Positions 2,398 to 21,435 of a stretch of DNA of 40,176 nucleotides are shown piece by piece. The stretch covers positions 1 through 40,176 of IMG/VR virus record IMGVR_UViG_3300028189_000548; one strand, given 5' to 3'. Below the pieces are notes generated by a model. The model did no database searches and had not been told where the DNA came from. It saw only the letters and a list, made by a program, of their open reading frames with translations. The translations under genes were made by a program, and so were the position numbers. Position 1 is the first letter of the stretch; every line of letters begins with the position of its first letter. This DNA is from a virus.

Positions 2398-3126
2398 TTA
2401 TTTTATTATATTTAATATATTAATCATTGTTGCCATAAAATTTATTTCTCTATCCACGATGTTTTTTTCTCTAAACTGACCTTCAGCCAGTTCTAATATA
2501 CATTCCGCGACATGACCACTCGCCCATGAATCCAGTTCATCAAATAGTAATCTGAACATATCAGCAAATTCTGTAACTTGGGTGTCTGCTAATAATTGTC
2601 GTATATTCTTAAATGCGCTCTTCTTATCTTGTGACTTTAGTATTTCTAATAATTTTAATTTGTAATCATTTTCAACCATACTACGTTTATCAACAGTCAA
2701 TTTACCATTTATAGATTGCTGTTGGACTGAATTGATTATTCGTCTAATGTCTGGATACCCACTATTAACGTTCAATACTATGTCCTCTACGTTGTATTCT
2801 ATTTCTTCCTTATCCAATATACCCTTTATATGTACTGCAATTTCTTTTTTGGATGGTGGAATTATCTGAAATGTTTGACATCTACTTTGGATTGGATCAA
2901 TTATTCGTTCTACATAATTACAGGTTAGAATAAACCGAGAATGTTTACTGAACGTTTCCATTAGATTTCGTAGTGCTGCTTGACCTTGTGGGGTGACGAA
3001 ATCACAATTATGTGTAAGTGTTTCTGTTTTACCTATTACGAAATTATGATTACCGTCAACTGACAAGTCATACACGTGCTGGGTGTCTTTTAATTTTTTT
3101 ATAGATTTAATCTTTATCTTGTTCAC
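2398..3126 (-). CDS. Clamp loader (RFC small subunit/gp44-like) C-fragment with 40-aa split-intein IntC (3007-3126)
   Basis: Starts MNKIKIKSIKKL...VYDLSVDGNHNF...THN (blocks F/G), then Cys+1 in CDFVTPQGQAALR; contains FILTCNY and the SRC motif of RFC-type clamp loaders. Confidence 0.92.
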   Translation of the reverse strand: MNKIKIKSIKKLKDTQHVYDLSVDGNHNFVIGKTETLTHNCDFVTPQGQAALRNLMETFSKHSRFILTCNYVERIIDPIQSRCQTFQIIPPSKKEIAVHIKGILDKEEIEYNVEDIVLNVNSGYPDIRRIINSVQQQSINGKLTVDKRSMVENDYKLKLLEILKSQDKKSAFKNIRQLLADTQVTEFADMFRLLFDELDSWASGHVAECILELAEGQFREKNIVDREINFMATMINILNIIK

Positions 3127-4000
3127 TATAACCTATTCCCACATACATTTTATTTAATTGTATTTTGTTATTATCAATAAATATTTCTGAATTTATATAA
3201 TCCATAATATTATTTTCATTTATCCACTTGAATTTATATCCACTCACATCACAATGTTTTATTAAGCTGTCTATTTTTTTTGTTTGTTTTAAGAAAAAAC
3301 TTCTTGGTTTTATTTCATACAATATCTTTGTATCTTTATCGTAAAAATCACCCATATAAACTCTACCATTATCCGTTTTTTTAGTTCTACATTCCTTACT
3401 TTCATATTCTAAATGTTGATTACTATACCAAAAACAAGCTTCCCACGAACTCCTAAACTTTTTAACTTTACCATTAACTTCTATTATAGCATCCCAATGT
3501 GTAAATGTATTTGTTATTGGTGGTGTAAATTCACCATTGGAAATCTTTTCTCTCATCAACTTTGAGTTTAATTTTGCATTTCTTTTTATATTAGCCTTAC
3601 CCTTTTCAGTCTGGTTAAACTCTTTCATCTTTTTAGAATTGTGTTTTCCAAGTTGTGTATAAAATTGTTTAGCTTCATCCGATTGTAACCATTTTTTCTT
3701 TGTATGTTGTATCTTTTTAGCAATTTTTATATTATCTCGTTTTCGCATCCATACTCTATTACCGACACACTGATTACAATATTTTCCATTATTTTTTGTA
3801 TGAAATCTAGAATCACAATGTTCACATTCTTTCAACCTACCTATTTTTTTACATTCATAACATAACAATTGATTCGACGCTTTAGCTACATAATCTTTAC
3901 CACAACTGTCACAAATCTTATCATAATAATGAACTCCACCAAGGCCATTTCTATTTGCGGCATCTCTTAACTTTTGCCTTGTAGATTTTTTTATACTCAT
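3107..4000 (-). CDS. Free-standing putative homing endonuclease (CxxC zinc fingers plus PD-(D/E)xK/TnsA-like nuclease domain)
   Basis: Lies between the two clamp-loader halves; four CxxC motifs; C-terminal RSSWE...DFY...YEIKP; own SD (GGAG). Confidence 0.75.
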   Translation of the reverse strand: MSIKKSTRQKLRDAANRNGLGGVHYYDKICDSCGKDYVAKASNQLLCYECKKIGRLKECEHCDSRFHTKNNGKYCNQCVGNRVWMRKRDNIKIAKKIQHTKKKWLQSDEAKQFYTQLGKHNSKKMKEFNQTEKGKANIKRNAKLNSKLMREKISNGEFTPPITNTFTHWDAIIEVNGKVKKFRSSWEACFWYSNQHLEYESKECRTKKTDNGRVYMGDFYDKDTKILYEIKPRSFFLKQTKKIDSLIKHCDVSGYKFKWINENNIMDYINSEIFIDNNKIQLNKMYVGIGYSEQDKD

Positions 4001-4021
4001 TTAACATCTCCATTGTTCATA

Positions 4022-4029
4022 TATAAATA
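4022..4029 (-). promoter_or_regulatory. TATTTATA box (candidate phage promoter) upstream of the clamp-loader endonuclease
   Basis: Same coding-strand motif at 8254-8261 and 15831-15838 and a variant at 21472-21479, each shortly upstream of a start codon. Confidence 0.4.
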
Positions 4030-4064
4030 TAACCAACTTGTGTTTTTCGAGTAAAAAAATCTAA

Positions 4065-4697
4065 CTATGGTGATAAAATATGATTATAGTTATCCAACTG
4101 ATTTGTTTTAACTACAATTGGATTACCATTTTTATCTTCGACGTACCATTTATGATCTTCAGTGCAAACAACTACTTCACCATTTTCAAGTTCAATCTCA
4201 TACACCTCTTGTTCACCCTTATCCCACAAGTGGAATGGTCTCCACTGCCATTCTTCTTTTTCAACATTCCAAGATTTAACTAAATCATTGTTTTCATCAA
4301 CATCTTTTATCGGAACTTGAATCTGTTCCCCATTCGATAATACAGTAACTAATGTATTTTCATCCAAACACTCATCAAGTACGACCACCTTTAAATCTTT
4401 AAATCCAATAGTTGATACGAATCCTTTTATTTTATTTCTAACAGAATCTACACTATTTTCATCACTCGCATTTATGTAAATATAGTCACATTCAATACTA
4501 TTTGAGAGTATTTTTGCGAGAGTTGTCTTACCGGTTCCAGCTGGACCAAATAATAGTAAGTGTGGGATGTCTCCACTTTCCAAATAAACCCTTACCTTTT
4601 CCTTTAGGTGGTCGTTTCCTATGTAAGTGTCTAATGATGTTGGCCTGTATTTCTCAACAAAAAGAGTATGTTCAGAATTTTGTTTGTTTTGTAACAT
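4065..4697 (-). CDS. Clamp loader N-fragment with 101-aa split-intein IntN (4065-4370)
   Basis: LFVEKYRP, Walker A GPAGTGKTT, INASDE, Walker B VVVLDE followed by CLDENTLV (block A) and CTEDHKW (block B TxxH). Confidence 0.92.
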   Translation of the reverse strand: MLQNKQNSEHTLFVEKYRPTSLDTYIGNDHLKEKVRVYLESGDIPHLLLFGPAGTGKTTLAKILSNSIECDYIYINASDENSVDSVRNKIKGFVSTIGFKDLKVVVLDECLDENTLVTVLSNGEQIQVPIKDVDENNDLVKSWNVEKEEWQWRPFHLWDKGEQEVYEIELENGEVVVCTEDHKWYVEDKNGNPIVVKTNQLDNYNHILSP

Positions 4698-8310: not shown

Positions 8311-9030
8311 TCAAGAAGCGTCTGTGACAGCCACCAAATAATACGTCACATCGTAATCATCTACCTTAAAGTTAATTCTGGACAACCCATCTGAACTTAC
8401 TTCAAGTGTTGCACTTTCACATTCCTTGTTTGCCGTCAATACATCCTTAAATAGGTTAGCATTAAAAGATACTTTATCAATATCTTCATAGACTTCAGTT
8501 TCTACTGGAAGTGTAACTCTGTTCGTATTAATTGACGAGTAACCAATAACCAATTTAGCTTCATCATTTTCAGTAATTACAGTAAATGTATCTGTATCTG
8601 GTAATGCTGCTTTTGCACTGATGAACCTAACGATGAAGTTGGTATCAACTTTAATCTTCAACTGAAACTCTGGAAGTTTCTTTAGTGGTGGTGGTTGATT
8701 GATAACCGATTTATCCGATAACATGAAATTAACTTTAGAGTGTTTATCTGACACCTCTAATGCAATTGCCTTGTCACCAGCTTGAGTTAGATTGAGTGTT
8801 ACATCATCATCTAAAACTCCTAACAATTTACTAAACTGTTCTGTATCATATACACCTAACTCGGCATCTTGGAAGGACCAATTAGTCATTGATAATTCAC
8901 CGAGAAGTGCTTTATCTCCTGTGATAAAACGGGTACTCAATGTATCATCTTTACTGTTTATAACTACCGCATTTACATTGCCACCTAAATGGTATTTGGC
9001 AATAAAGCGGGTTAATTTATGTTTGTTCAT
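8311..9030 (-). CDS. Sliding clamp (gp45/PCNA-like processivity factor)
   Basis: 239 aa, two-domain size, E-L-G-V-Y-D...F-x-x-L-L pattern and terminal YYLVA strand; lies directly downstream of PolB and near the clamp loader. Confidence 0.78.
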   Translation of the reverse strand: MNKHKLTRFIAKYHLGGNVNAVVINSKDDTLSTRFITGDKALLGELSMTNWSFQDAELGVYDTEQFSKLLGVLDDDVTLNLTQAGDKAIALEVSDKHSKVNFMLSDKSVINQPPPLKKLPEFQLKIKVDTNFIVRFISAKAALPDTDTFTVITENDEAKLVIGYSSINTNRVTLPVETEVYEDIDKVSFNANLFKDVLTANKECESATLEVSSDGLSRINFKVDDYDVTYYLVAVTDAS

Positions 9031-9092
9031 TTGTTACTCTCCTGTTATTTGTTCTGACGTATATACATATATATCAGATTGATTATTCAAAA

Positions 9093-10009
9093 TTAAAAAA
9101 ATCTTTCTATACTTTGTGCTTCATCTACTGGTTTACCCCAATCTAAACATTCATAAAATAGATTGAGTTTTTTAGTGAGTGCTCTATCATAGATTTTATC
9201 ATAATCCATATTATCTTCTATGAATTTCATAATCTCGGGTGGATCTTCATAACCTTTATATGCTACTACTGATAATCCTAATGAGTTATTCTTTAAATAT
9301 ACCCACCGGATTTTATCCCCATTACTTATAAATCCATATTTTTTATCTCGTTTGTAATATCGCAATAAATCATTATAACTTACTGCTGCCCTTACATGGA
9401 CTGGAATACCGTTCTTCAATACTGTAAATACTGAAGTATTTTCTTTGTCCTTTTTAATATATTTCTTAATTCCCTTTACACCGGTTGGAGAAGAAATATC
9501 ATCTAAATCTTTTAATCTCATGTTCTTCTTAAATCTGGTTATTCTATGGTCTATCTTATCCCGTGGAACACTTGCTAAAATGTCCTCTAATACATCGTTT
9601 AATAGTTTTCTAAATGCCGGTGCGAAATTACTACGTACAGTATCTAATCCCTTTACCATTGTCTTATTTACTTGAACTCCATTATCACTAATGAGTTTCA
9701 TACCATATCGTTTCTTTGTAATGAATAAACCAGACTTTGCTATAATTTCCTGTTTGATTTCAAATCGGTGTGTGTCTAAGTTACAGAATTTCTTAGCGAA
9801 ATAGTCGTATGAACCATTTAAGTATTCTTGAACTTCAGTTGCAATTTCATTTATTCGTTGAGTCATCATTACATCACTCAGGCTTTGACCTTTGAAACGG
9901 TGGTTAATGAGGTCTACAACTGATAAAAATATAGAATCAGTCAAGTGTCGACGTAGATAATTCTATCAACATCGAGATCTGGCTGCCTCCTTATTTGTTT
10001 TATTTTCAT
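9093..10009 (-). CDS. Family B DNA polymerase C-fragment, interrupted by a 5-nt insertion (9939-9943) in motif C
   Basis: ATG at 10009 gives MKIKQIRRQPDLDVDRIIYVDT-TGA; the -1 frame continues TDSIFLS...KKRY...KGLDTVRS. Removing 5 nt gives a 303-aa ORF with an intact YVDTDS. Confidence 0.85.
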
Positions 10010-10479
10010 ATTATAATTTTCCTTATATGTTCTAAAACGGTTTCTTTACTCAAATTCCAATCATTTTCCCAAATTATTATTGGGATATATCCATTATCTT
10101 CATAAAAATTTATTTTAATTTCATCATACTCCCAAATTTCATTGGCAACTTTACCCCCTCTAATAGTATGAGTCTCATTATATAACTGCGGATTCATGTG
10201 CCAATAATCACCAAAAAATTCTATAATATAATTTTCATATTTACCATCTGCCACATAACACCCAATTCGAACTTCTGGTTGGATCTCAATATTAAGTTCA
10301 CGTTCTATTTCCTTCATTACAGAAATAGATAATTTTGATTTTGAATTAAATTTAACACGTTTACTTTCAGCCTCTATTTCTGTATATCCATTATGTAACC
10401 AATACTCAATTTTAGTTGTATTATAAAGTAAATTCCAAATTTTTCTTCTATTATCATCTGTATAATCTAACTCAAAAAA
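10006..10479 (-). CDS. Vsr/DUF559-like endonuclease between the PolB halves
   Basis: IIEFFGDYWH and IIIWENDW are Vsr-like motifs. The frame is open from 10479 but the first ATG is at 10317; stop overlaps the PolB-C ATG (ATGA). Confidence 0.8.
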   Translation of the reverse strand, partial: FFELDYTDDNRRKIWNLLYNTTKIEYWLHNGYTEIEAESKRVKFNSKSKLSISVMKEIERELNIEIQPEVRIGCYVADGKYENYIIEFFGDYWHMNPQLYNETHTIRGGKVANEIWEYDEIKINFYEDNGYIPIIIWENDWNLSKETVLEHIRKIII

Positions 10480-12227
10480 TCATCGGTTTCCAGTAAATCT
10501 TTTACTTTTATTTCCATTTTTTTACCATTTCGTATTACATCAACTCTATTGTTTTCATATAACTTTCTAACTTCACCGTTTTCTAATTCAACTTCAACTG
10601 GAGTACCAATCTCACTATTATAAAAATGATTTGTTATTTTTGCAGTAAACTTAATTAATTCTTGCCCTGCCGTTGTAACTGAGGTTGCATTTTCTAAATC
10701 GTAAAATCTCCAACCCTGAAGTCCAAGAACACCGTACATACTATTAAGTAAAATTTTCTGAATATATTGTCGTCTGTTAAAGTATTCATATTTTTCGTCA
10801 TTTCCGTCGTCTGCAAATTTCTTAGCTAATTTCCTAAACTCTGATCTTGTATCAAACCACTTGGATAAAATAGTTGGTATTAAACCTGCTTTGTCTGTTT
10901 TATATAATATACCAGCACTTGAAATAGATATTTGATTATCATTAAAAAAGTCCTCTAATTCTGTATTTGTTAGTTGGCCCTTCTTCTTTCCATTTAATAT
11001 GATAGAATGTGTCTTTTTTTTCTTTGATATAAATTCTTTAGCATTCCAACCAACTACCCTTCCAAACTTAGTTTCTGGGCTGATATTCAAACTCATTATT
11101 AAATTTGGGTACATACTTGTCAGATCCAAATCTATAACCCAGTCATGTTTACCACGTTGTGGACTTTTTACGTATGCTCCTACGAACTTATTATCTGTAT
11201 ATTCACCCTTTTCTGGTTTGTTTGGTGCTACGATGTTTAATTTTTTCAAATGAGTGAGGATTGCCCCTTCTAAATATCTACTACTGAAATATATGTCCTC
11301 ATATGGAACATGACCGATATGACAAATACCACGGGCAATATCAATGAAATCTAATTTATCATCCAACTGTTTTACTATTCTAACATCATGAATGTTATAT
11401 TCCACAAACTTTCTCAAGTCGTTTTCAAATAAATCGTTTAGTGTTCCATCGTAACTTATTTTTGGTGATCCAACTTCAAATTGACCAATGGCATCTAATC
11501 TATATGATGGTCTTGACCCAAATGTAAAATCCTTATAGAGTAGTAAGTAATCTAATACACTTACACCTGCTATTTTATATCGTTTCGTGTATTTACTATA
11601 CATCACCTTTGATATTGGTGATAGATTGTCAGCAACACTTTGACCGAGAACTTTAATTGTTCTGTTGTATAAATATGGAATATCAAACCCATCTACGTTC
11701 CAACCTGTAATAATAGTTGGTCGTAGCTCTAAATACTTTTGGTAAAATCTTTGTAATAATTCATACTCTGTTTGGTGACTCTCAACTACGACATTCTTTC
11801 CAAATCCTGTTGTGTCTAGTGTCTTATGTTCGTCTAATGCTAAGCACGTATAAACATTACTGATGTTATCCCACATTGCAATAGATGTGATTTTATTTGG
11901 ACCAATCATTGGGTCTGGAAAGCCCTCTGTTACTTCACACTCAATGTCAAATATGAATATTTTATGTCCAGTAGATGGTTCTTCACTTTGACCGTACATA
12001 TCTATTAATGTCCGCATTTCAGGATTTACATCACTTTCAAATAATCCTTCTGCAGTCTTATCCCATCTGTATATCTTCTTTAATTTATCACCGTATAAGG
12101 ATGCAAAAGTTCCATAGTTGTCTCTAACATAAGCATACTTTTTGTATTGTGTTGAAACATATCCGGCTTTGTCGTCCCAAATGTGGACCTTTCCCTTGAA
12201 TGGTTCTACGAATATATTTTGGTAAAT
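10467..12227 (-). CDS. Family B DNA polymerase N-fragment (exonuclease, motif A, motif B) with intein-like tail; probable ATT start
   Basis: ExoI FDIEC, ExoII WNVDGFDIPY, ExoIII YNIHD, motif A DLTSMYP, motif B KILLNSMYG. The frame is open for 70 codons upstream of the listed ATG (12017), to ATT at 12227 with GAGG 7 nt upstream. Confidence 0.9.
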   Translation of the reverse strand: MYQNIFVEPFKGKVHIWDDKAGYVSTQYKKYAYVRDNYGTFASLYGDKLKKIYRWDKTAEGLFESDVNPEMRTLIDMYGQSEEPSTGHKIFIFDIECEVTEGFPDPMIGPNKITSIAMWDNISNVYTCLALDEHKTLDTTGFGKNVVVESHQTEYELLQRFYQKYLELRPTIITGWNVDGFDIPYLYNRTIKVLGQSVADNLSPISKVMYSKYTKRYKIAGVSVLDYLLLYKDFTFGSRPSYRLDAIGQFEVGSPKISYDGTLNDLFENDLRKFVEYNIHDVRIVKQLDDKLDFIDIARGICHIGHVPYEDIYFSSRYLEGAILTHLKKLNIVAPNKPEKGEYTDNKFVGAYVKSPQRGKHDWVIDLDLTSMYPNLIMSLNISPETKFGRVVGWNAKEFISKKKKTHSIILNGKKKGQLTNTELEDFFNDNQISISSAGILYKTDKAGLIPTILSKWFDTRSEFRKLAKKFADDGNDEKYEYFNRRQYIQKILLNSMYGVLGLQGWRFYDLENATSVTTAGQELIKFTAKITNHFYNSEIGTPVEVELENGEVRKLYENNRVDVIRNGKKMEIKVKDLLETDDFLS

Positions 12228-12303
12228 CTTATAACCTCTTTTGTTTAATTGGTATTATACTGTAATAATCTTGATGTGAATATACGACGGAAAATCGTAA
12301 AAG

Positions 12304-13680
12304 TCAAGAATATTCTTGGTCGTCATTATCACCCGTACCGTAAATTATTTCACATCCAGATGAATCACAGAATTTTTCCACGTCAGCTTCTTCACCCTCG
12401 ATACCAACAAAACTCAACTTGCCTAGTTTTTTCACCATTTTATTATATGTCTTTTCGTCAATGGCTTCGTATGGCATTTGTCGGTATGCACCGAGTTCGT
12501 GGCGTGGTAATAACGATATTCCCTTTAATCTGTATTGGAAATAATTTAAAACTTGTGGTAATTCGGCAGACTCGGTTTCTGGATTAAATGTCGCCGTACA
12601 ACTCACTTGGTTGTCTGCCCAATGTCGTTGTAGGAATGCGGCTAAATTGAATTGTTCCCATATAGATAAATCACCTACAGTTCTAATTCCCTCACCTACA
12701 TCAACTGGAACCTCTACTACCATTGTACTATCTTCTGACCCGAATGCTGGTTCTAAATGATAGTTTGCCTTTTTTAATGGTTCGATCAATTCCGATTGTT
12801 TGGATAATCTCATCCGTCTTATATAAAACCTACTTTCTGGATAATGCATTCCGGGTGTTGCTCCTACTAACAAAGACACCGTCCCACTCGGTTTTATTGA
12901 GCTCAACTTTATACTTCTCGGTACTGCTAACCAATCTGAATACATTTTATCCCATTTTGTAAGTTCGTCGTATCCCTCTTCACACCACAGTTTTAATGTG
13001 TTTAATCCATTATTAGTAATAAATTGAGCTATACCACTCATAGATGTACCAATTCGTCTGTTGCGTAACATTACTCTATTAGTTTCTGGCCAATGAGTTT
13101 TTCCTAAAGTAACTGTTTTTGCATATAAGTATGCATACTTTAATGTCTTTTTATAATCTTCTAAGTCATCGTGGTGGTGTGGAAATGTCTCTACGAGACA
13201 ACATAGCTCGTAGCTTTCGAGTGATTGTTCCAGACAGGGATTTCCGCCTGCAACTCTGTGGTCTTTGTTATCGCCACCATTTTTCATACGAGAATATTCT
13301 CTCATATTTTCTAACCATGCAATTCCGGGTTCACCATTATCTACTATTCGTTTACATATATCAGTATAATCCATTCCGATTTCTGCAAATACTGAATTAT
13401 TAGATGTCCAACCAAATTGTTCCCGTTCTGGGTTCTTTTTGTAATTCTTTAAGTCTAAGTATTCTTCATCTGTAGCATCACCGAATACAATTTCTGCTGT
13501 ATTATGTGATACTATTGTCTCATCTACTCCATTTTCAGGATTTTTAACAAAGAAATGATGTTTATCTTCAACTTCTATGTCCCAAGTTTTTTCAACTTTA
13601 CCTTCATCAACTATATCCATAATAGTAACGAGTTCAAAATCTTCTAAATTAAAATCTTCTATTCCGTATTTTTCTATCAT
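12304..13680 (-). CDS. nrdJ: Class II (B12-dependent, monomeric RTPR-type) ribonucleotide reductase C-fragment with 60-aa IntC (13501-13680)
   Basis: TWDIEVEDKHHFF...SHN then Thr+1 (TAEI); GGNPCLEQ catalytic finger loop, CCLVE, IKPSGTVS. Confidence 0.92.
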   Translation of the reverse strand: MIEKYGIEDFNLEDFELVTIMDIVDEGKVEKTWDIEVEDKHHFFVKNPENGVDETIVSHNTAEIVFGDATDEEYLDLKNYKKNPEREQFGWTSNNSVFAEIGMDYTDICKRIVDNGEPGIAWLENMREYSRMKNGGDNKDHRVAGGNPCLEQSLESYELCCLVETFPHHHDDLEDYKKTLKYAYLYAKTVTLGKTHWPETNRVMLRNRRIGTSMSGIAQFITNNGLNTLKLWCEEGYDELTKWDKMYSDWLAVPRSIKLSSIKPSGTVSLLVGATPGMHYPESRFYIRRMRLSKQSELIEPLKKANYHLEPAFGSEDSTMVVEVPVDVGEGIRTVGDLSIWEQFNLAAFLQRHWADNQVSCTATFNPETESAELPQVLNYFQYRLKGISLLPRHELGAYRQMPYEAIDEKTYNKMVKKLGKLSFVGIEGEEADVEKFCDSSGCEIIYGTGDNDDQEYS

Positions 13681-13688
13681 GTTATCTC

Positions 13689-14639
13689 CTAATAAACGTC
13701 CAGCTTAAAATCAAATCCAAGTGATTTTGTTGCTTCAAATTTTAAATTATTTTTTTCCTTATCGAACTCAAGTGTATATGTGCCTTTCGTTTCAATAATT
13801 AAATTATCACCGGGTATATAAAAATCTGGATAGTATCGTCTTTTTTTACCTTCATAGTTATACCAAATCTCTGGCATATCACTCTTTTTGTATAAAATAT
13901 CATTTTCACTATATCCAGACTGAAATAAATTATCTAACGTTTTATTTTCGTATCCTTGAATTCTAATTCGTTTTCCGGATGGCATAGTATAAAATTTATT
14001 TGTATTATAATACCCACTATATCCGTCTAATGCCTTTTCTGCAAATTCTGGGTGATGCATTGGATTTTCTACACCATATAATTCTACCATCCTATCTCTA
14101 AATTCTTTAGTTCCAAATTTAAAATAATCTTCTCTACCATACTTTTCAATTATTGTTTGTTTAGCTTTCCTTTTAAACTCATCTGTCTGTGTGTAATAAT
14201 CAACACCGTATTCACTATTTATAAAATCCATTCTAATTTTTTTATATTCATTAGAATTTACATACGCAGTTGCTCCATATTTTTTTAAATTAGTTTTCAT
14301 TGTTCTATCTTTAACTTCGGGGATTTGTTGTGCATTGTCTACACCATATCTTCTTTGGAAAGTTTTTATTTTTTTATCAGTTATTTCCGTTTCATTACGC
14401 TTTTCTTGTATTTTTTTGATGGAAGTTGGAAATTGCCATGCGTTTTCATACCCATATTTTTCTTTCATTATTTTAGCTTGATGATTGTATCTCATTTTCT
14501 TTGCTTTATCACTCCAAGTGCATTTTTTATCACAGTAGAATAATCCACTTTCAATCCGTATCCTATAATCTCTATTCTTTTTTGTTTCATATTCTGTTCC
14601 ACAAATAATACAATTAACTTTTACAATTTCAAGTGCCAT
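13689..14639 (-). CDS. Free-standing putative homing endonuclease (EKYG repeats plus PD-(D/E)xK domain)
   Basis: Lies between the nrdJ halves; about 6 (E/K/R)-x-YG-x-x-N/Y repeats; QGYE...YYPDFYIP...IIETKG nuclease motif; own SD. Confidence 0.78.
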   Translation of the reverse strand: MALEIVKVNCIICGTEYETKKNRDYRIRIESGLFYCDKKCTWSDKAKKMRYNHQAKIMKEKYGYENAWQFPTSIKKIQEKRNETEITDKKIKTFQRRYGVDNAQQIPEVKDRTMKTNLKKYGATAYVNSNEYKKIRMDFINSEYGVDYYTQTDEFKRKAKQTIIEKYGREDYFKFGTKEFRDRMVELYGVENPMHHPEFAEKALDGYSGYYNTNKFYTMPSGKRIRIQGYENKTLDNLFQSGYSENDILYKKSDMPEIWYNYEGKKRRYYPDFYIPGDNLIIETKGTYTLEFDKEKNNLKFEATKSLGFDFKLDVY

Positions 14640-14701
14640 TTTTTATCTCCTATATTCAATAATAACTATAAGAAAAGATAAAAAACATACATTTCCCGAC
14701 A

Positions 14702-15796
14702 CTATTTTTTCTGTTTTACGAGAAAATCTTTATCTTTATCTATATCTTTAACCATCTTCCATTCAAACCCATTATCTTGATTATAAACTAATAAAGTATG
14801 TTTTTCCGTCGCCTCATATTCAGTCCCATTTAAAGTTTTAATTTTTAGGACTTTTTGTTCGCCACTATCAAATGTATTTAAGACTTGTTTATAGCCATCA
14901 GCAGTTAAAACTTTATCATTTCTCGTTATTTCTTCCATCTTCTTAAATCCATCTTCAGTAAGAACTTCATACCATTTAGGTAAGCACCTGCGAACATTGC
15001 CGGCCACTACACACTTTCCAATCAAATTCATAATATCTACGATTGTGGTAACGGTTATTGGTTCACCTGTATTCTTTTCTAATACTTCACTTACGGTGTC
15101 ATGGACTTCTTCTAATGGTGTATATCCACTCGCCACACCACCAAAACCTTTTATTGGTTCACCTAGACCTCTAATGAGTGAATAATCAAATTTCATCGGG
15201 GCTGTTCCGTGAAAATATGATTCCAATAATAATTCTAAACTCTCTACCCAACCTTCTCGTGTATCTGGTATTTGAAATGTTTCTTCGTTTCTATCTCTAT
15301 TTATTCCCTTTATTATAATTTCACCAGCACCCTTTACATCAAACCCCACGCCGACACCCAACATTGAGGCATCCATTAAAAATGTGAATGGTTTGGAGTA
15401 ATCTTGTTTTAGTGTGGAAGTGGAGACGAATGCACAGTTGTTTAGGGCGGCATATAACTTCTTTTCTTCTGTGATAGCAGTTCCCATTGCCCATAAACCT
15501 CTGCCTGGTGGTAGAAATTTCATACTCCACATTCTCTCATACATTTCTTGAGCGGAGTTTTGAGCTTGCCATGGATTCCAACCTAATTGATGTTGTTCAA
15601 TCCATTCCTTTTGCATATTATATGTACCCTCTACAACCCGTTGAATGGTTTCCCACCACCTTTCATTTTTTCCATTTTCCTTGATACGGGAATAGGTTCG
15701 CATATACACTAACAGTCCCAATCCATTAAAGCCAAATGGTGGCTTTTTTCTCTTGTATCCGTTTATAAAATTTTCCGTTAAAACGAATTTATCCAT
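14702..15796 (-). CDS. nrdJ: Class II ribonucleotide reductase N-fragment with 94-aa IntN (14702-14986)
   Basis: RTYSR, FLPPGRGLW, ALNNC, GVGVGFD, VVAGNVRR followed by CLPKWYEV (block A) and ATEKH (block B). Confidence 0.92.
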   Translation of the reverse strand: MDKFVLTENFINGYKRKKPPFGFNGLGLLVYMRTYSRIKENGKNERWWETIQRVVEGTYNMQKEWIEQHQLGWNPWQAQNSAQEMYERMWSMKFLPPGRGLWAMGTAITEEKKLYAALNNCAFVSTSTLKQDYSKPFTFLMDASMLGVGVGFDVKGAGEIIIKGINRDRNEETFQIPDTREGWVESLELLLESYFHGTAPMKFDYSLIRGLGEPIKGFGGVASGYTPLEEVHDTVSEVLEKNTGEPITVTTIVDIMNLIGKCVVAGNVRRCLPKWYEVLTEDGFKKMEEITRNDKVLTADGYKQVLNTFDSGEQKVLKIKTLNGTEYEATEKHTLLVYNQDNGFEWKMVKDIDKDKDFLVKQKK

Positions 15797-16319: not shown

Positions 16320-16569
16320 TTACAAATTCCTTACATTTTTTAACTATATATTTTTCATCCATCTTATAGAAAACATCATCTACTCGTAAAATTTTATACC
16401 CCTTACTTTCTAAAATAATATCTCGTTGAATATCAAGATTTCCATCGTGCCAATATTCACAATCAAATTCAATTATTGAATTTCCACACTTGAAATCTGG
16501 CATTATAATTTTATTTGGATAATCATTTTCGTGATTTACAAAAAGTTTCTTTATTTCTTTGTAAATAAT
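16306..16569 (-). CDS. Short Vsr/DUF559-like endonuclease between the helicase halves
   Basis: PDF...IIEFDCEYWH...D-x-x-R-D-x-x-L-x-x-x-G-Y-K-I-L-R; frame open from ATT at 16569, first ATG at 16503. Confidence 0.72.
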   Translation of the reverse strand: MIYKEIKKLFVNHENDYPNKIIMPDFKCGNSIIEFDCEYWHDGNLDIQRDIILESKGYKILRVDDVFYKMDEKYIVKKCKEFVNENA

Positions 16570-18425
16570 TTATCACCCACTTTTAATCCAGTTGCAACTG
16601 ATTTTAATTTACCATACATAACAGGTAAATCGTGATTAGCTGAAATAGTTATCTCTTTACCTGATTTCAATTTAACTTTATATACTGGTTGTTTTTCAAC
16701 TGGAAAAACTTTATTAACTTTTTTATATCCAAGATGAGTTAGAATTTCATCACCTTCTTTTATTTTTCCAATTTCTATTTCGCCATTTTCAGTTTCTACT
16801 TTATCAGTTAAAATATGACACCTATTCGCTTGACTTGCGGTCCAGATGGGGAAGTCGTATTCTCCTGCAAGACCTCTTAAATCTTCATAAATACTTTCTA
16901 ATACGTGTCGTTTTTCTGTTCCAACACCACGGAGAATATCTGCGTAATCTACTAATACCAAATCTATATTTGTTCCCTGTAATTCTATTTGTTTCAAATG
17001 GGATGAAAGTGTCTGGACTGTTGCACCCTTTGTTGGGAAGTATTTAATTAGTAGAGTTCCCTTTAATTCTGCAATTTTCTTCTTGACATCATCTTTATAG
17101 TATTTTATATTAGCCGTAGTCACTCCACTAAATACTGTATCAAATCGTAACCCCACGTAATTTTGATTTAATTCTAACGTATAATATACTACATTTAATC
17201 CATTCTTTACTGCTGATGCTCCTATTGCTTGTAAAGTCCAACTGTTATGTGATAAAATACCATTACCATAAAAACAATGAATGTCCTCTACTGATATATC
17301 ATATAAAATGGTTTCTGGCATTTCGTTAAACTTTAATACAGACATATATCCGGTGGTAGACACAATTTTATCACCAACCTTTAAATCTCGAACCTTTACC
17401 CAGTCACCGTCATATAATTTAAGTCTGTGATCCCAACTACAACGTAAAGATCTATTGTGAGATTTAAAATAAACTCTAACATTTTTTAGGAACTCAGTTC
17501 GTTGTAATGTTATAATATTTTTATATGCGTCCGGTGTTTTAATTAATATTTCAAATGGCAATTCATATTCTACATTTTGAACTTCTGGTATTCCTATTTT
17601 AGAAAATAAAGTTTTTAAGTTTATGGTTTCTAATACTTGTTTTTTAATAAATCCATCATTATCAAAAAATTTCCAAGCTGATGTCAATTTCTCTAAACCA
17701 TATGAATCAATTAATTTTATCTTATCCCATGGATCATACCATTCAGTATCACCATTTTCAATTAACTTTCCAAGTTTAAAAAATGCAATGTCAATTTTAG
17801 TACACCCACCAACACATTTTCCAATTCCGGCTGGGGCTACTACTACTCCTAATTCACCCGATCCTAAACCACCATCCATTATTTCATCTATGGTTTCCCA
17901 ACCAGTTTTTACGGTGTCTCTAGCAGAGTTAGCAAGTCGCTCTTCTATACCATCAATGTATTCATGTCCTAATTCTCTGTCACCACCAGCCTTCATTGCG
18001 TCATCTATGAGTTGCTTTATCTCATCATATTTACCGATTTCTAATAAATCAACACTATCCATTATTGCTGCTTTAATAACTTGATTTTTACAGAACTCTA
18101 ATGTCTGTTCTTGTATAAATGGTAAATCAGTTGATTCTATATATCTCCAACTTTCTTTTAGATTTTCTACCACGGACATCTTTAGAATGTCGTTTTCTAT
18201 ATCGTCTATTTTTACCTTTAATACTTCTAATGTAGGACCAGTTTTATACTCAAAGAAATAATCTCGTATTGTTTTTGCTAAAAACTTATTCGCATCAGAG
18301 TCGAAGTATGATGGTTCTAATATATCTGATATTGTTTGGAGGAACTTTTTATCACCAAGTAGTGATGATATTATTTTACATTGAAATGTTTTACCAAACT
18401 GTTGTAAAGTTGAGTGTTCACTCAT
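16551..18425 (-). CDS. DnaB/gp41-like helicase N-fragment with a cis mini-intein and an 89-aa split IntN (16551-16820)
   Basis: Walker A APAGIGK|S, YYTLEL, VLVDYADI (Walker B), WTASQANR followed by CHILTD (block A) and SANH (block B). Confidence 0.92.
   Translation of the reverse strand: MSEHSTLQQFGKTFQCKIISSLLGDKKFLQTISDILEPSYFDSDANKFLAKTIRDYFFEYKTGPTLEVLKVKIDDIENDILKMSVVENLKESWRYIESTDLPFIQEQTLEFCKNQVIKAAIMDSVDLLEIGKYDEIKQLIDDAMKAGGDRELGHEYIDGIEERLANSARDTVKTGWETIDEIMDGGLGSGELGVVVAPAGIGKCVGGCTKIDIAFFKLGKLIENGDTEWYDPWDKIKLIDSYGLEKLTSAWKFFDNDGFIKKQVLETINLKTLFSKIGIPEVQNVEYELPFEILIKTPDAYKNIITLQRTEFLKNVRVYFKSHNRSLRCSWDHRLKLYDGDWVKVRDLKVGDKIVSTTGYMSVLKFNEMPETILYDISVEDIHCFYGNGILSHNSWTLQAIGASAVKNGLNVVYYTLELNQNYVGLRFDTVFSGVTTANIKYYKDDVKKKIAELKGTLLIKYFPTKGATVQTLSSHLKQIELQGTNIDLVLVDYADILRGVGTEKRHVLESIYEDLRGLAGEYDFPIWTASQANRCHILTDKVETENGEIEIGKIKEGDEILTHLGYKKVNKVFPVEKQPVYKVKLKSGKEITISANHDLPVMYGKLKSVATGLKVGDKLFTKK
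17244..17816 (-). mobile_element. 191-aa cis mini-intein in the helicase P-loop (GK|S)
   Basis: Starts CVGGCTKI, block B CSWDH, ends YDISVEDIHCFYGNGILSHN, Ser+1; no LAGLIDADG motif seen. Confidence 0.88.
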
Positions 18426-19257: not shown

Positions 19258-20820
19258 TAAAAATATTCGTGTTCTACTAAATTATGAGGATTTTTTGCAT
19301 TCTCGATTCTAGCTTCCATTATTTTAAAATACTCTTTTTCTCTTTCGATAAGTATGTAGTTCCTTTCTGAAAACACACAAGCAATTCCTGTTGTTCCACT
19401 TCCTGAAAATGGATCTAATACCACATCACCTTTACGACTACCCAATGTAACTAAATAACTCATTAAGGTTACGGGTTTTACTGTTGGATGAATATTATTT
19501 TCCAATCCACTATTCTTTTCAGATTTACTCGCCTTTGGAACAATTAAAAATGGAAATGTCCGTTGTATTTCTTCTGGTAATTTCTTAACCCTATCTTCCC
19601 ACCAAGCATCTAAACTATAATATCTACTAAAATCTTTTTCTAATATATCATCACTTATTAATAGGTTTGCTGCAAATCTACCGAGTGGTGATGCTTCTGC
19701 TGTATCATTATTCTCTGACTTAAATCCACTTGTCTTAAATACATTATCGTCTGCTCGTGGTTGTCGTTTAGTGGTTTTTGGTTTTTGATAAGTTTCACTC
19801 GGGTTTAATTGTTTCATATCACCACTAAGAAATGTCTTTCCACCTTCATTTACTTTACCGATTGTTTTTGCACCACCGAATGACTGTTGTTTTTCTACAT
19901 ATTTATCGTAATCACTTTTAGATTTTCGTGATGGTTGATTTCCCCTTGATAATCCTTCTGCGTCAGTATCAAAGTTTTTCTGACTACCTACATTATCCTT
20001 ATTGTATTGTTCTAAATCTTTACTAACAGGTTTCTTAAATCCATAATTATATGTTCCACCATATTCTTTAGCATATACCGAACCTTCTTCTATGGAACTT
20101 CTTTCTGTAAATCCTTTTCTATCACTTTCATATTGTTCTGTATCACTCATTCCTGCAAATGGTATTCTACAATTATCCAACCAAGTGATCCCTTTTTGAT
20201 TATCAAGTGCTTGGTCTAAATAACCTTTCTTCTCTAATGGTTTCATTGCCACAATCACGACTTCTACTGCTGGTTTTGGTTGATATCCTGCATAACTTCC
20301 ATCAAGTTTCTTGGCTTCGTCTGACTTTGGTTCTGTTATATAACTTTCAACTCTTGGTCTATTACTTACAGTTTCACCACTCCAACCATCTTGACCTGTG
20401 TTTTCATCTCGGCGGATATCCGCATAAGTTCCTTTCTTTTTACCAATTACTTTCCGTTCCTTACCTAATCTTTTATCAACTGCCTTACCAATATTCATAG
20501 CCTTTGGAAAACCTGTAGCGTATGTCCAATAGATAGGTGAGAAACCAATTTGAAATCCAACTTCCTCTAACATTTGAACCATTCTGTATTGAACGTCACT
20601 TCTTGGAGCACTCATTACGAATGCAAATCCACCTGGTTTCAATACTCTCAATGACTCTTCAAATATCTCTTTAGGTGGCAACGTCTTATCCCAATCTTTA
20701 CCCATAAATCCATAGCTTAATTCAACCATACGGTGGATCTGTACATAACAAATCTACCGTATGATCGGCAATCTCCTTTAATTTTTCTATACTATCTCCA
20801 AGTAATAATTTACTTTCCAT
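19257..20820 (-). CDS. N4/N6 (beta-class) DNA methyltransferase interrupted by a 10-nt insertion (20715-20724) after DPPYG
   Basis: ATG at 20820 gives MESKLLLGDSIEKL...CTDPPYG-TGA; the +1 frame continues YGFMGKDWD...RVLKPGG...HPTVKP...VLDPFSGSGTT. Removing 10 nt gives a 517-aa ORF. Confidence 0.85.
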
Positions 20821-21435
20821 AATATTCATGTCCCCCTGGAACTTTGACTTTTTCCAATTATCATTTTCCATCATTTTTTTGATGGATTTTTTACTCATTA
20901 TTCTCCAACCATCCATATTGAAAGTTTTTATCACTTCTCCCAATAATTTCATCTGGTCTATACTAAATGCATGACCACGAGTTCTATTACATAACTCACA
21001 ACACACAACACAATTTTCTTTAATATGCCCTACATTATTATCTATTCTATCAAGTCCAAGAGTTTCTCTTTCACCACTTCCACAATAATAACACATTAAA
21101 TCATTTTCCATAATCTCACACATTTCATCAAATGTAAAATCTACTTCATCTCTTTGCCTATAACTGTTATATTTCCGTTTCCATATGTGTTTATATTTTG
21201 ACCAACCAGTACCTTCTCTCATCGGTGCAGTTAATCCTAATGATTGACCTTTATTTCTACATTCAACACTACAGAACTTTTTCCCATCGGCATGAGATGG
21301 ATATACTTTACTTACTTTACCACATAATTTGCACTCTACTTCTACTCTACTATCTTTCCCTTTATTCCACCCAGATCCCTTTTTTAGATTTTCCCAACTT
21401 GAGTTATATGTCTTTCTTTTATCTTCATTTCCCAT
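20722..21435 (-). CDS. His-Me/HNH-type endonuclease fused in frame to the methyltransferase N-terminal 32 aa
   Basis: CYYCG...GLDRIDN..GH...NCVVCCELCN motif; N-terminal CxxC...CSxxC zinc finger. Confidence 0.8.
   Translation of the reverse strand: MGNEDKRKTYNSSWENLKKGSGWNKGKDSRVEVECKLCGKVSKVYPSHADGKKFCSVECRNKGQSLGLTAPMREGTGWSKYKHIWKRKYNSYRQRDEVDFTFDEMCEIMENDLMCYYCGSGERETLGLDRIDNNVGHIKENCVVCCELCNRTRGHAFSIDQMKLLGEVIKTFNMDGWRIMSKKSIKKMMENDNWKKSKFQGDMNIMESKLLLGDSIEKLKEIADHTVDLLCTDPPYG

What the first reader, a model, noticed from the sequence alone, without database searches (positions are those of the whole stretch)
9931..10009. 5-nt stop-containing insertion in the PolB catalytic DTDS motif with matched ACU take-off/landing codons: candidate micro ribosomal-bypass element
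Seen: the minus strand reads TAC GTC GAC ACT TG ACT GAT TCT. The PolB-C frame from ATG 10009 hits TGA right after D-T, and an identical ACT codon lies 5 nt downstream in the frame that carries the rest of the polymerase. A P-site hop ACU to ACU restores YVDTDS exactly. The site sits in a predicted hairpin AUAGAAUUA/UCUAC/GUCGA/CAC/UUGAC/UGAUUCUAU whose inner stem exists only because of the insertion. Established: T4 gene 60 bypassing uses matched codons, an adjacent stop and a take-off hairpin over 50 nt. Inference: an essential polymerase is decoded by a 5-nt hop. Alternatives are re-initiation at the overlapping TTG (TTGA overlap, splitting the enzyme inside its catalytic turn), RNA-level excision, or inactivation/misassembly. 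The rest of the window, including 3-4 kb ORFs, shows no comparable lesions.
Basis: partly seen in the sequence, partly recalled or inferred. Interest (0 to 1): 0.95.

Follow-up and report, generated by a model that had tools for sequence, protein, structure and literature searches.

The report
Short ribosome-hop gap in phage polymerase
The only DNA polymerase gene seen in this uncultured marine T4-like phage really has a stop codon plus two extra bases inside its catalytic motif, carried in by a selfish nuclease cassette. Comparison with 12 other wild versions suggests that ribosomes hop over the five bases, which would be a rare natural short form of the phage T4 gene 60 bypass. Restarting translation at the overlapping TTG is not excluded for this phage.

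Summary
On the minus strand the sequence reads GAC ACT TGA CT GAT TCT. Relative to 154 unsplit relatives, which read Y-I-D-T-D-S without a break, there are five extra bases (9943-9939). Six other independent assemblies have the identical junction.

The gap is the 3' edge of a mobile cassette that splits PolB. The cassette consists of an intein-derived tail on PolB-N, a small endonuclease-like ORF, and a 22-codon leader (MKIK..IIYVDT-stop).

I found 13 junction types in wild T4-like phages, with gaps of 5, 6 or 7 nt and stops TGA, TAA or TAG. In every one, removing the gap restores Y(I/V)DTDS, and PolB-C is intact (dN/dS 0.04-0.07 in the window's clade). Six types have no ATG, GTG or TTG from which PolB-C could start. 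One of these sits in a 90%-complete genome with a single PolB.

Every cassette has a co-varying hairpin that ends at the take-off Thr codon. Unsplit genes lack it.

Best reading (0.55): a Thr-to-Thr +5 hop. Main rival (0.28): termination-reinitiation at TTG, giving a three-piece enzyme. Earlier AI notes from this scan, which I did not check, describe similar gaps in other phage DNA.

The parts
10467..12227 (-). PolB-N (exonuclease domain, motifs A and B). It is homologous to unsplit PolB up to ...NHFYNSEIGT. It probably starts at ATT 12227-12225 behind the SD-like AGAGG at 12239-12235.
   Evidence: Pfam PF03104/PF00136 and phrog_262 positions 101-569. tblastn with a relative's PolB-N gives one continuous match 12227..10467. 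No ATG/GTG/TTG lies in frame before 12017.
10470..10601 (-). C-terminal tail of PolB-N of about 44 aa (PVEVELENGEV...DDFLS). It is absent from unsplit PolB and derives from an intein N-half, but has no Cys1 and no TxxH.
   Evidence: The phrog_262 match stops before it. BLASTP against the clamp-loader IntN of the same window gives E 2e-5 and 2e-4. The same tail is present in L164, L083, L287 and L290.
10006..10317 (-). Small endonuclease-like ORF of 103 aa (frame open up to 10479), a remnant or variant of the cassette's homing endonuclease.
   Evidence: phrog_22677 E 6.5e-13 and phrog_559 'HNH endonuclease' E 3.6e-4. Weak DUF559/Vsr-like hits, E 0.04-0.12. Relatives carry 277 aa (L083), 35 aa (L165) or only a few codons (L164, L287) at this place.
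9941..10009 (-). 22-codon leader ORF. It has an IntC-like head (MKIKQIRRQPDL) followed by the PolB strand DVDRIIYVDT, then TGA. Its ATG overlaps the stop of the endonuclease-like ORF (ATGA).
   Evidence: The ORF is conserved in all 13 junction types. Head versus clamp-loader IntC gives shuffle p 0.0005-0.03.
9948..9975 (-). Upstream hairpin (UCGAUGU.GAUA-GAAU-UAUC.ACGUCGA). Its 3' arm consists of the PolB codons I-Y-V-D and ends 1 nt before the take-off codon.
   Evidence: RNAfold -10.9 to -11.6 kcal/mol. The homologous hairpin in 12 lineages has 93.6% of cells paired and 3 compensatory pairs. It is absent from unsplit relatives.
9944..9946 (-). Proposed take-off codon ACT (the Thr of DTDS).
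   Evidence: It is always ACN and always directly followed by a stop in all 13 types.
9939..9943 (-). The 5-nt gap TGACT. The stop TGA (9943-9941) overlaps the landing codon ACT (9941-9939).
9942..9944 (-). TTG in the PolB-C frame, overlapping the stop (TTGA). This would be the restart codon under the rival reading.
   Evidence: It is not conserved: CTG in L002/L195 and GTA in L196/L287/L297.
9093..9938 (-). PolB-C from the resume codon GAT (DSIFLS...ERFF): the second half of motif C, the rest of the palm, and the thumb.
   Evidence: PF00136 and phrog_262 positions 579-850. It is intact in all 13 types. dN/dS is 0.038-0.074 within the window's clade.

Best explanation
The five bases are the 3' edge of a mobile homing-endonuclease cassette that has invaded the PolB gene of marine T4-like phages. 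The cassette splits the gene about 10 codons before motif C. It leaves a dead intein N-half as a tail on PolB-N and carries a free-standing endonuclease gene, which is decayed in this window. It then supplies a new start with a 22-codon leader whose last eight codons re-encode the PolB strand ..RIIYVDT. The leader ends in a stop that overlaps the host's own Thr codon. Inferred mechanism: a ribosome translating the leader pauses with peptidyl-tRNA-Thr on ACU (9946-9944) and UGA in the A site. The strong hairpin it has just unwound begins to re-form at the mRNA exit and pulls the mRNA forward. The tRNA un-pairs and re-pairs with the ACU 5 nt downstream (9941-9939), and decoding resumes at GAU. 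This gives one chain, leader-YVDTDS-PolB-C, with an exact motif C. That chain then associates non-covalently with PolB-N, possibly through the two intein remnants. The gap probably also breaks the endonuclease's target site, as the 50-nt gap of T4 gene 60 does for MobA. Shown: the anatomy, conservation, mobility, hairpin covariation, and the lack of start codons in relatives. Inferred: the hop itself, the pulling role of the hairpin, the immunity role of the gap, and the clasp role of the intein remnants.
For: (1) The gap is real and fixed. The junction is identical in 6 more assemblies, and the ORF is indexed in 142 sample blocks. (2) There are 13 junction types in diverged PolB lineages (38-95% aa identity). 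All have a stop directly after the ACN of D-T, then 2-4 more bases, then GAY TCN, and removing the gap always restores Y(I/V)DTDS. (3) PolB-C is complete in all 13 types. dN/dS is 0.038-0.074 at dS 0.65-0.89 among the three TGACT lineages. (4) Six of the 13 types have no ATG/GTG/TTG in the PolB-C frame between the last stop and GAY. Three of these (L196, L287, L297) have no near-cognate codon either. L196 lies in a 174,750-bp record that is 90% complete and holds only this one split PolB. (5) The landing position is a Thr codon in 9 of 13 types and differs by one base from the take-off codon in the other four. (6) A hairpin of -11 to -25 kcal/mol ends 0-1 nt from the take-off codon, or overlaps it by 1-2 nt, in the 12 lineages aligned (6 nt upstream in L297). 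93.6% of cells are paired against 13-45% when the partner is slid. Three pairs show compensatory changes, and 8 double-change cells are seen against 2.3 +/- 1.4 in shuffles. Twelve unsplit relatives have nothing comparable. (7) No lineage has the cassette without the gap. (8) The cassette is mobile. Leader identity and PolB-C identity disagree (L002-L164: 94% vs 69%; WIN-L002: 74% vs 85%), and the gap label needs at least 4-5 changes on the PolB-C tree. (9) The same grammar (leader, hairpin abutting a codon, stop, short gap, repeated codon) occurs behind an unrelated HNH gene in this window's methyltransferase and covaries in relative L222. (10) Literature: the T4 gene 60 gap is part of the MobA cassette, and pairing of exiting mRNA is proposed to drive forward bypassing (10.1101/2022.08.31.505936; 10.1101/2024.12.09.627546). 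A refolding hairpin just upstream of a shift site favours forward shifts, including on 70S ribosomes (PMC6321510). Shorter matched-codon counterparts of gene 60 have long been expected (PMC5009743).
Against: There is no direct evidence: no reads, RNA, peptide or reporter data. In this window a TTG in the PolB-C frame overlaps the stop (TTGA), and the hairpin here is the weakest of all (z -1.6), so restarting is plausible for this lineage. Two types have ATG exactly before GAT (TGATG, TAAATG), which looks like a stop-start design. In four types the landing codon is not Thr. No A-site stem-loop or conserved downstream structure was found. Known un-programmed stop-hops are inefficient. A PolB split elsewhere by termination-reinitiation is fully active (PMC3061061). 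All of the lineages are uncultured, so none has been shown to be viable.
Confidence: 0.55

Rival explanations
1. Termination-reinitiation (translational coupling). The ribosome ends the 22-aa leader at TGA and restarts at the overlapping TTG. The polymerase is then assembled from three chains: PolB-N, a free 22-aa peptide carrying the ..IIYVDT strand, and PolB-C starting M-T-D-S. The catalytic hairpin is cut at its turn.
For: There is a TTGA overlap in the window and L084, ATGA in L164, TGATG in L165 and TAA-ATG in L197. The leader is itself coupled to the upstream ORF by ATGA. Pfu PolB split by an AUGA termination-reinitiation junction is fully active, and natural gp43 and Mth PolB splits exist (PMC3061061). 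Split enzymes held together by cassette-derived tails are known (PMC3045599). The hairpin could serve to make PolB-C translation depend on leader translation.
Against: Six of the 13 junction types have no ATG/GTG/TTG in the PolB-C frame, and three have no near-cognate codon either, yet PolB-C is intact and is the only PolB in a 90%-complete genome. With ACN-TGA and a 5-nt gap, an NTG codon falls in frame automatically, so the TTG here may be a by-product. No purine-rich Shine-Dalgarno motif lies before the restart codon, although the leader and PolB-N have one. In the 7-nt types the nearest start lies 4-8 codons upstream and would add up to 9 residues next to the catalytic Asp. No split inside DTDS is known.
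Confidence: 0.28
2. A simple frameshift without an exact hop (-1 or +2 at the 5-nt gaps, +1 at the 7-nt gaps), giving one or two extra residues between DT and DS.
For: The frames fit arithmetically, and the stop and the upstream hairpin are also known stimulators of frameshifting (PMC6321510).
Against: There is no slippery sequence, and ACU cannot re-pair at -1, +1 or +2. A single mechanism would have to work at gaps of 5, 6 and 7 nt. The product would carry an insertion in the catalytic turn, which is invariant in 154 relatives.
Confidence: 0.04
3. The bases are removed before translation, by RNA-level excision or editing, or by a DNA subpopulation that lacks the gap.
For: None positive. It would also restore the frame.
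Against: No intron-like or known RNA family is present. The gaps are 5-7 nt with 3-nt repeats at most. All seven assemblies of this lineage carry the gap. No relative has the cassette without the gap.
Confidence: 0.03
4. The gene is dead, or the gap is an assembly artefact.
For: It is a frame break in an essential motif of an uncultured, 19%-complete contig.
Against: The junction is identical in independent assemblies. dN/dS is 0.04-0.07 downstream. There are 13 conserved junction types. There is only one PolB in a 90%-complete relative. An ordinary error looks different: the single-contig 1-nt loss in L289.
Confidence: 0.02

Closest known systems
Phage T4 gene 60 translational bypass within the MobA homing-endonuclease cassette (Huang 1988; Bonocora 2011; 10.1101/2022.08.31.505936; 10.1101/2024.12.09.627546)
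   Same: The architecture matches: host gene split, a free-standing endonuclease gene, a short leader ORF (46 codons there, 21-27 here), a take-off codon directly followed by a stop, the same-amino-acid codon repeated at the landing site, an mRNA stem-loop just upstream of take-off, and a gap lying in the region the endonuclease would be expected to target.
   Different: The gap is 5-7 nt, not 50 nt. The stop overlaps the landing codon. No A-site stem-loop or internal SD-like element is present. The host gene is different (PolB motif C) and so is the endonuclease family. There is no sequence homology. Bypass is experimentally proven for gene 60 and only inferred here.
Synthetic or adventitious short 'stop-hops' and tRNA hopping in E. 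coli (Weiss 1987; O'Connor 1989; reviewed in PMC5009743)
   Same: Peptidyl-tRNA leaves a codon next to a stop and re-pairs with a matching codon a few nucleotides downstream (+5 and +6 hops were described).
   Different: Those events are un-programmed and of low efficiency. Here the site sits in an essential gene, is conserved, and has a dedicated co-varying hairpin. According to PMC5009743, natural stop-hops were not known.
Fractured genes: split inteins plus a free-standing Vsr-like endonuclease (Dassa 2009, PMC2677866); Aeh1 nrdA split by mobE with cassette-derived tails (Crona 2011, PMC3045599)
   Same: An essential replication or nucleotide-metabolism gene of an environmental phage is cut into ORFs with an endonuclease gene between them. 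Extra tail and head sequences flank the break and are absent from intact homologues. The window itself holds true fractured genes (clamp loader, helicase, RNR).
   Different: The intein halves here are truncated and cannot splice (no Cys1, no TxxH, no His-Asn). None of the described cases has a second break, a stop plus a few bases, inside a catalytic motif.
Split family-B polymerases: T4-like gp43 finger-tip splits (Petrov 2006, 2010), Mth PolB palm split (Kelman 1999), engineered Pfu split by AUGA termination-reinitiation (PMC3061061)
   Same: PolB tolerates being made as two chains. One engineered case uses an overlapping stop/start like the TTGA here.
   Different: [quoted passage not shown] None has a 22-aa middle piece.
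Refolding upstream hairpins that bias ribosome movement (PMC3639245, PMC6321510)
   Same: A hairpin placed directly 5' of the shift site re-forms behind the ribosome and favours forward movement, including in a 70S system.
   Different: This was shown for +1/-1 frameshifting on engineered sites, not for a 5-7 nt hop.

Membership tests
Programmed translational bypassing (gene 60 type) | Take-off codon immediately followed by a stop or slow codon | tested here: met
   ACT-TGA in the window. ACN followed by TGA, TAA or TAG in all 13 junction types.
Programmed translational bypassing (gene 60 type) | Landing codon matching the take-off codon, with decoding resuming at the next codon to give the conserved protein sequence | tested here: met
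   The window has ACT then ACT 5 nt on, and resuming at GAT gives YVDTDS. In relatives the landing codon is Thr in 9 of 13 types and one base off in 4.
Programmed translational bypassing (gene 60 type) | One polypeptide made from two ORFs, lacking gap-encoded residues | not testable with these tools
   This needs mass spectrometry or a reporter assay. The indirect argument is that 6 of 13 types have no start codon for PolB-C.
Programmed translational bypassing (gene 60 type) | Stimulatory mRNA structure at or near take-off | tested here: inconclusive
   A conserved, co-varying hairpin lies directly upstream and is analogous to the gene 60 5' stem-loop. No A-site or take-off stem-loop and no conserved downstream structure was found. 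Function was not tested.
Programmed translational bypassing (gene 60 type) | Nascent-peptide signal | tested here: inconclusive
   The leader head MKIKxI plus basic residues is nearly invariant, but it also resembles the first IntC strand. The methyltransferase site has an unrelated leader.
Programmed translational bypassing (gene 60 type) | Homology to the gene 60 / mobA element | tested here: not met
   The host gene and the nuclease are different. No Rfam hit, and there are only short, distant PolB matches in the phage collection.
Homing-endonuclease cassette / fractured gene | Host gene cut into ORFs with a free-standing endonuclease gene between them; patchy, mobile distribution | tested here: met
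   ORF order. The leader and PolB-C identities are incongruent. At least 4-5 label changes are needed on the tree. The nuclease family assignment is weak, and cleavage was not tested.
Homing-endonuclease cassette / fractured gene | Functional split intein (Cys/Ser1, TxxH, His-Asn, +1 nucleophile) able to trans-splice | tested here: not met
   The tail matches IntN but has no Cys1 and reads YENN in place of TxxH. The leader has only the first IntC strand.
Termination-reinitiation coupling | Start codon of the downstream frame overlapping or next to the stop | tested here: inconclusive
   Met in the window (TTGA) and in 6 other types. Not met in 6 of 13 types.
Termination-reinitiation coupling | Shine-Dalgarno-like motif shortly upstream of the restart codon | tested here: not met
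   The 15 nt before TTG read ATCTACGTCGACAC, with no purine run. The leader and PolB-N starts do have AAGGA and AGAGG.
+1/-1 programmed frameshift (prfB, dnaX type) | Slippery sequence that allows P-site re-pairing in the overlapping frame | tested here: not met
   GAC ACU UGA offers no re-pairing at -1, +1 or +2.

The most novel reading that the evidence does not exclude
Marine T4-like phages carry a family of compact, mobile 'hairpin-stop-gap' modules. These ride with homing endonucleases into the most conserved motifs of essential genes (PolB DTDS and, in the same phage, a methyltransferase DPPY). They are decoded by efficient programmed hops of 5-16 nt, driven mainly by an mRNA hairpin that re-forms behind the ribosome. 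This would be a natural, minimal and recurrent form of translational bypassing that needs neither a long gap nor an A-site stem-loop.
Probability: 0.5. Interest if true: 0.92.

Novelty: new variant of a known kind. Interest (0 to 1): 0.85.

Why it matters
Efficient programmed bypassing is firmly established for T4 gene 60 and its homologues, and for yeast mitochondrial byps. Short natural hops have been expected for decades but not documented (PMC5009743). This site offers a roughly 70-nt element that can be tested directly. It comes with 13 natural variants, which amount to a ready-made mutational series of gap length, stop codon, landing codon and hairpin, and with a second site in the same genome.

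If the hop is confirmed, it would show that an upstream refolding hairpin plus a stop is enough to move a ribosome a set distance. It would tie bypassing mechanistically to endonuclease self-immunity in a second system, and it would provide a compact recoding module.

If the polymerase is instead made in three pieces, it would be the first family-B polymerase cut between the catalytic residues of DTDS.

There is also a practical consequence. Gene callers currently start PolB-C at internal Met codons that lack the catalytic Asp, so these phage polymerases are mis-annotated.

Tried and rejected
Independent assemblies were used instead.
- Annotated phage collection: only short, distant PolB matches.
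- tRNA genes in the window: none, so no special tRNA was found.
- Rfam: only chance-level hits. No terminator-like site in 9000-12400.
- A conserved structure downstream of the stop: not found (z from -2.7 to +2.2).
- Pfam/NCBIfam naming of the endonuclease: only weak DUF559/Vsr-like hits. The window's 103-aa ORF and the 277-aa ORF of L083 align only marginally.
- BLASTP of the 22-aa leader against IntC: no hit. Only a shuffle-tested local alignment supports the likeness.
- Other short PolB-C gene calls: the one lineage checked that started at an internal Met (L289) had an ordinary single-contig 1-nt frameshift, not a cassette. Several pattern hits were unrelated genes.
- Other genetic codes: reading TGA as a residue leads to further stops within a few codons (frame shown), and relatives use all three stops.
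- Complex prediction and structure prediction were not run. The leader is shorter than the tool's 30-residue guidance, the hop product cannot be submitted unaltered, and a pass for halves of a known fold would not separate the two main readings.
Full report
WHAT IS THERE. The window is a 40,176-bp IMG/VR viral contig, estimated 19% complete, from a T4-like phage. It carries PolB, a sliding clamp, a clamp loader and RNR. On the minus strand the polymerase is encoded in pieces:
- PolB-N runs from 12227 to 10467. The first in-frame ATG is at 12017, but homology starts at an ATT at 12227 behind an AGAGG.
- A 103-codon endonuclease-like ORF lies at 10317..10006.
- A 22-codon ORF lies at 10009..9941 and reads MKIKQIRRQPDLDVDRIIYVDT-stop.
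- A 283-codon frame from TTG 9944 to 9093 starts (M)TDSIFLS.

PolB homology in PolB-N ends at ..NHFYNSEIGT (phrog_262 position 569) and resumes in PolB-C at position 579. The missing strand (..RIIYVDT) is in the 22-codon leader.

IS IT REAL AND UNUSUAL. Of 171 related PolB-C loci fetched from viral and metagenome collections, 154 read Y-I-D-T-D-S without a break inside an unsplit gene. The window's junction is base-for-base identical in six further independent assemblies. The exact 283-aa ORF, which exists only if the frame break exists, is indexed in 142 sample blocks.

THE GAP IS PART OF A MOBILE CASSETTE. Pattern and protein searches recovered 13 junction types. All share the following:
- a tail on PolB-N;
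- an endonuclease gene, or what remains of it. Sizes are 277 aa in L083, 103 aa here, 35 aa in L165, and a few codons in L164/L287;
- a leader starting MKIKxI and ending (I/L)Y(I/V)DT;
- a stop directly after the Thr codon;
- 2-4 further bases;
- then GAY TCN.

The gaps are TGACT (window, L084, L002), TGACC, TGACA, TAACT (three lineages), TAACC, TGATG, TAAATG, TAGTTCG and TAGTGCG. No lineage has the cassette without a gap, and no unsplit gene has a gap.

The cassette moves independently of its host gene. L002 and L164 share 94% of the leader but 69% of PolB-C, while the window and L002 share 74% of the leader but 85% of PolB-C. On a PolB-C tree of 120 sequences the gap label needs at least 4-5 changes.

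The tail of PolB-N matches the N-intein of the window's own fractured clamp-loader gene (E 2e-5 and 2e-4) but lacks Cys1 and TxxH. The leader head resembles the first strand of that intein's C-half (shuffle p 0.0005-0.03) but has no block F or G. The cassette therefore appears to derive from a 'fractured gene' split-intein element (PMC2677866) that can no longer splice.

THE DOWNSTREAM HALF IS IN USE. PolB-C is complete in all 13 types at 278-292 codons. Among the three lineages that share TGACT, dN/dS is 0.038-0.074 while dS is 0.65-0.89. The frame break has therefore persisted through long divergence under strong protein-level constraint. In a 174,750-bp, 90%-complete relative (L196) the split gene is the only PolB.

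HOP OR RESTART. Removing the gap restores Y(I/V)DTDS in every type. The question is whether the chain is continuous.

For a restart: the window and L084 have TTG overlapping the stop, L164 has ATGA, and L165 and L197 have ATG just before GAT. An AUGA-coupled split of Pfu PolB is fully active (PMC3061061).

Against a restart as the general mechanism:
- Six of 13 types (L002, L195, L196, L287, L290, L297) have no ATG, GTG or TTG anywhere between the last in-frame stop and the catalytic Asp codon. Three of them lack even a near-cognate codon. Public gene calls for such lineages begin at internal Met codons downstream of the Asp.
- With ACN-TGA and a 5-nt gap, an NTG codon falls into the PolB-C frame automatically. 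The window's TTG therefore needs no selective explanation.
- There is no Shine-Dalgarno-like run before it, although the leader and PolB-N have one.
- The landing position keeps a Thr codon in 9 of 13 types. In the other four it is one base away from the take-off codon, and in three of those the difference would be a G-U pair with the anticodon (the pairing argument is inference).
- Simple +1/-1 shifts find no slippery sequence and would insert residues into an invariant turn.

THE CONSERVED RNA ELEMENT. All 12 lineages aligned fold a hairpin inside the leader. Its 3' arm consists of the PolB codons (I)Y(I/V)D, and it ends 0-1 nt from the take-off codon or overlaps it by 1-2 nt. Stability ranges from -11 kcal/mol (window, z -1.6, the weakest) to -25 kcal/mol, with z of -4.4 to -8.1 in lineages other than the window and L084. 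L297 has a different hairpin that ends 6 nt upstream.

On alignment A1, 93.6% of cells pair, against 13-45% when the partner is slid. Three pairs show compensatory changes; for example, ATT/AAT versus ATC/GAT gives G-C in 7 lineages and A-U in 5. Eight double-change cells are seen, against 2.3 +/- 1.4 in shuffles (0 of 500 shuffles reach this). Twelve unsplit relatives have only -2 to -7 kcal/mol over the same codons.

No conserved structure follows the stop.

With the Thr codon in the P site, the 3' arm lies inside the ribosome and the loop sits at the mRNA exit (inference from the commonly cited span of roughly 12-15 nt between the P site and the exit). Each base of forward slide therefore lets one more pair form. 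This is the role proposed for exiting-mRNA pairing in gene 60 (10.1101/2024.12.09.627546) and shown for refolding upstream hairpins at shift sites, including on 70S ribosomes (PMC6321510).

A SECOND SITE IN THE SAME WINDOW. Behind an HNH-type ORF (21435..20722), a 32-codon leader ends ..TDPPYG-TGA. The rest of the methyltransferase follows out of frame, with TATGG repeated 16 nt on (20730-20726 and 20714-20710). A hairpin, CATACGGT/ACCGTATG, abuts the GGT codon. Of 80 relatives, 75 have DPPY in frame without a break. L221 repeats the window's gap. L222 has GGT-TGAATAAATT-GGC with a co-varying hairpin, GTACGGTGG/CCGCCGTAC. The grammar is therefore not specific to one gene or one nuclease family, which points to translation rather than a nuclease-specific DNA feature.

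VERDICT. The site is the 3' edge of a mobile endonuclease cassette. Its layout copies that of the T4 mobA/gene 60 element: split gene, nuclease, short leader, stop, gap, repeated codon (10.1101/2022.08.31.505936).

I put 0.55 on a Thr-to-Thr +5 hop giving a continuous leader-YVDTDS-PolB-C chain. I put 0.28 on termination-reinitiation at TTG, which would give a three-piece enzyme, and small odds on the rest. For this particular lineage both routes may operate. No paper in the held library describes such short gaps in phage polymerases. Earlier AI notes of this scan report similar gaps in other phage genomes; I did not test those.

Noticed in passing
window 20701-20830 (minus strand); relatives L221, L222: A second stop-plus-gap site. 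The methyltransferase leader ends ..DPPYG-TGA behind an HNH-type ORF. TATGG is repeated 16 nt downstream, so a GGT-to-GGA hop would give DPPYG-FMGKDWD. A hairpin (CATACGGT/ACCGTATG) abuts the GGT codon. L222 has a 10-nt gap flanked by GGT and GGC, with a co-varying hairpin. 75 of 80 relatives have no break. An ATG (20729-20727) also opens the downstream frame, so a restart is possible here too.
   Followed up: partly
window 12225-12239 (minus strand): PolB-N appears to start at ATT (12227-12225), 7 nt after AGAGG. It aligns with the TTG start of relative L164. No ATG/GTG/TTG lies in frame for the first 70 conserved codons. This is a non-canonical start on the polymerase gene.
   Followed up: partly
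window 10470-10601 and 9977-10009; compare 4065-4697 and 2398-3126: The PolB-N tail and the leader head look like truncated halves of a split intein related to the clamp-loader split intein of the same window. They cannot splice but might act as a non-covalent clasp.
   Followed up: partly
window 10006-10479; L083 457-1290; L165 2836-2943; L164 about 2905-2935: A decay series of the cassette's endonuclease gene: 277 aa, then 103 aa (frame open for 157 codons but without a start), then 35 aa, then a few terminal codons. The leader, hairpin and gap stay intact throughout. The window's ORF and the L083 ORF are barely alignable, so more than one nuclease type may serve the same cassette.
   Followed up: partly
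window 16551-18425, 2398-4697, 12304-15796: Other replication genes of the window are fractured or intein-bearing. The helicase-like ORF holds an internal intein and ends in an IntN-like tail. The clamp loader has IntN/IntC halves around an endonuclease ORF at 3107-4000.
   Followed up: no
L193 about 12930-13034 (minus strand): An ORF starting MKIKEIREIEYDDDVWCLTVQNDNTF.. looks like a genuine IntC. It shares the first seven residues with the PolB leaders, and its DDVWCLTV resembles the PolB DDYCIYIDT. This hints at how an intein cassette could have recombined into motif C.
   Followed up: no
window 12279-12307 (minus strand): A promoter-like TTGACT-17-TATATT lies just upstream of PolB-N. It is a consensus match only, and the total number of such sites is no higher than in shuffles.
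   Followed up: no
L289 about 1440-1460: A relative with an unbroken DTDS has a single-base loss in a T run further downstream, seen in one contig only. This is an ordinary error or mutation and is useful as a contrast to the conserved gaps.
   Followed up: yes
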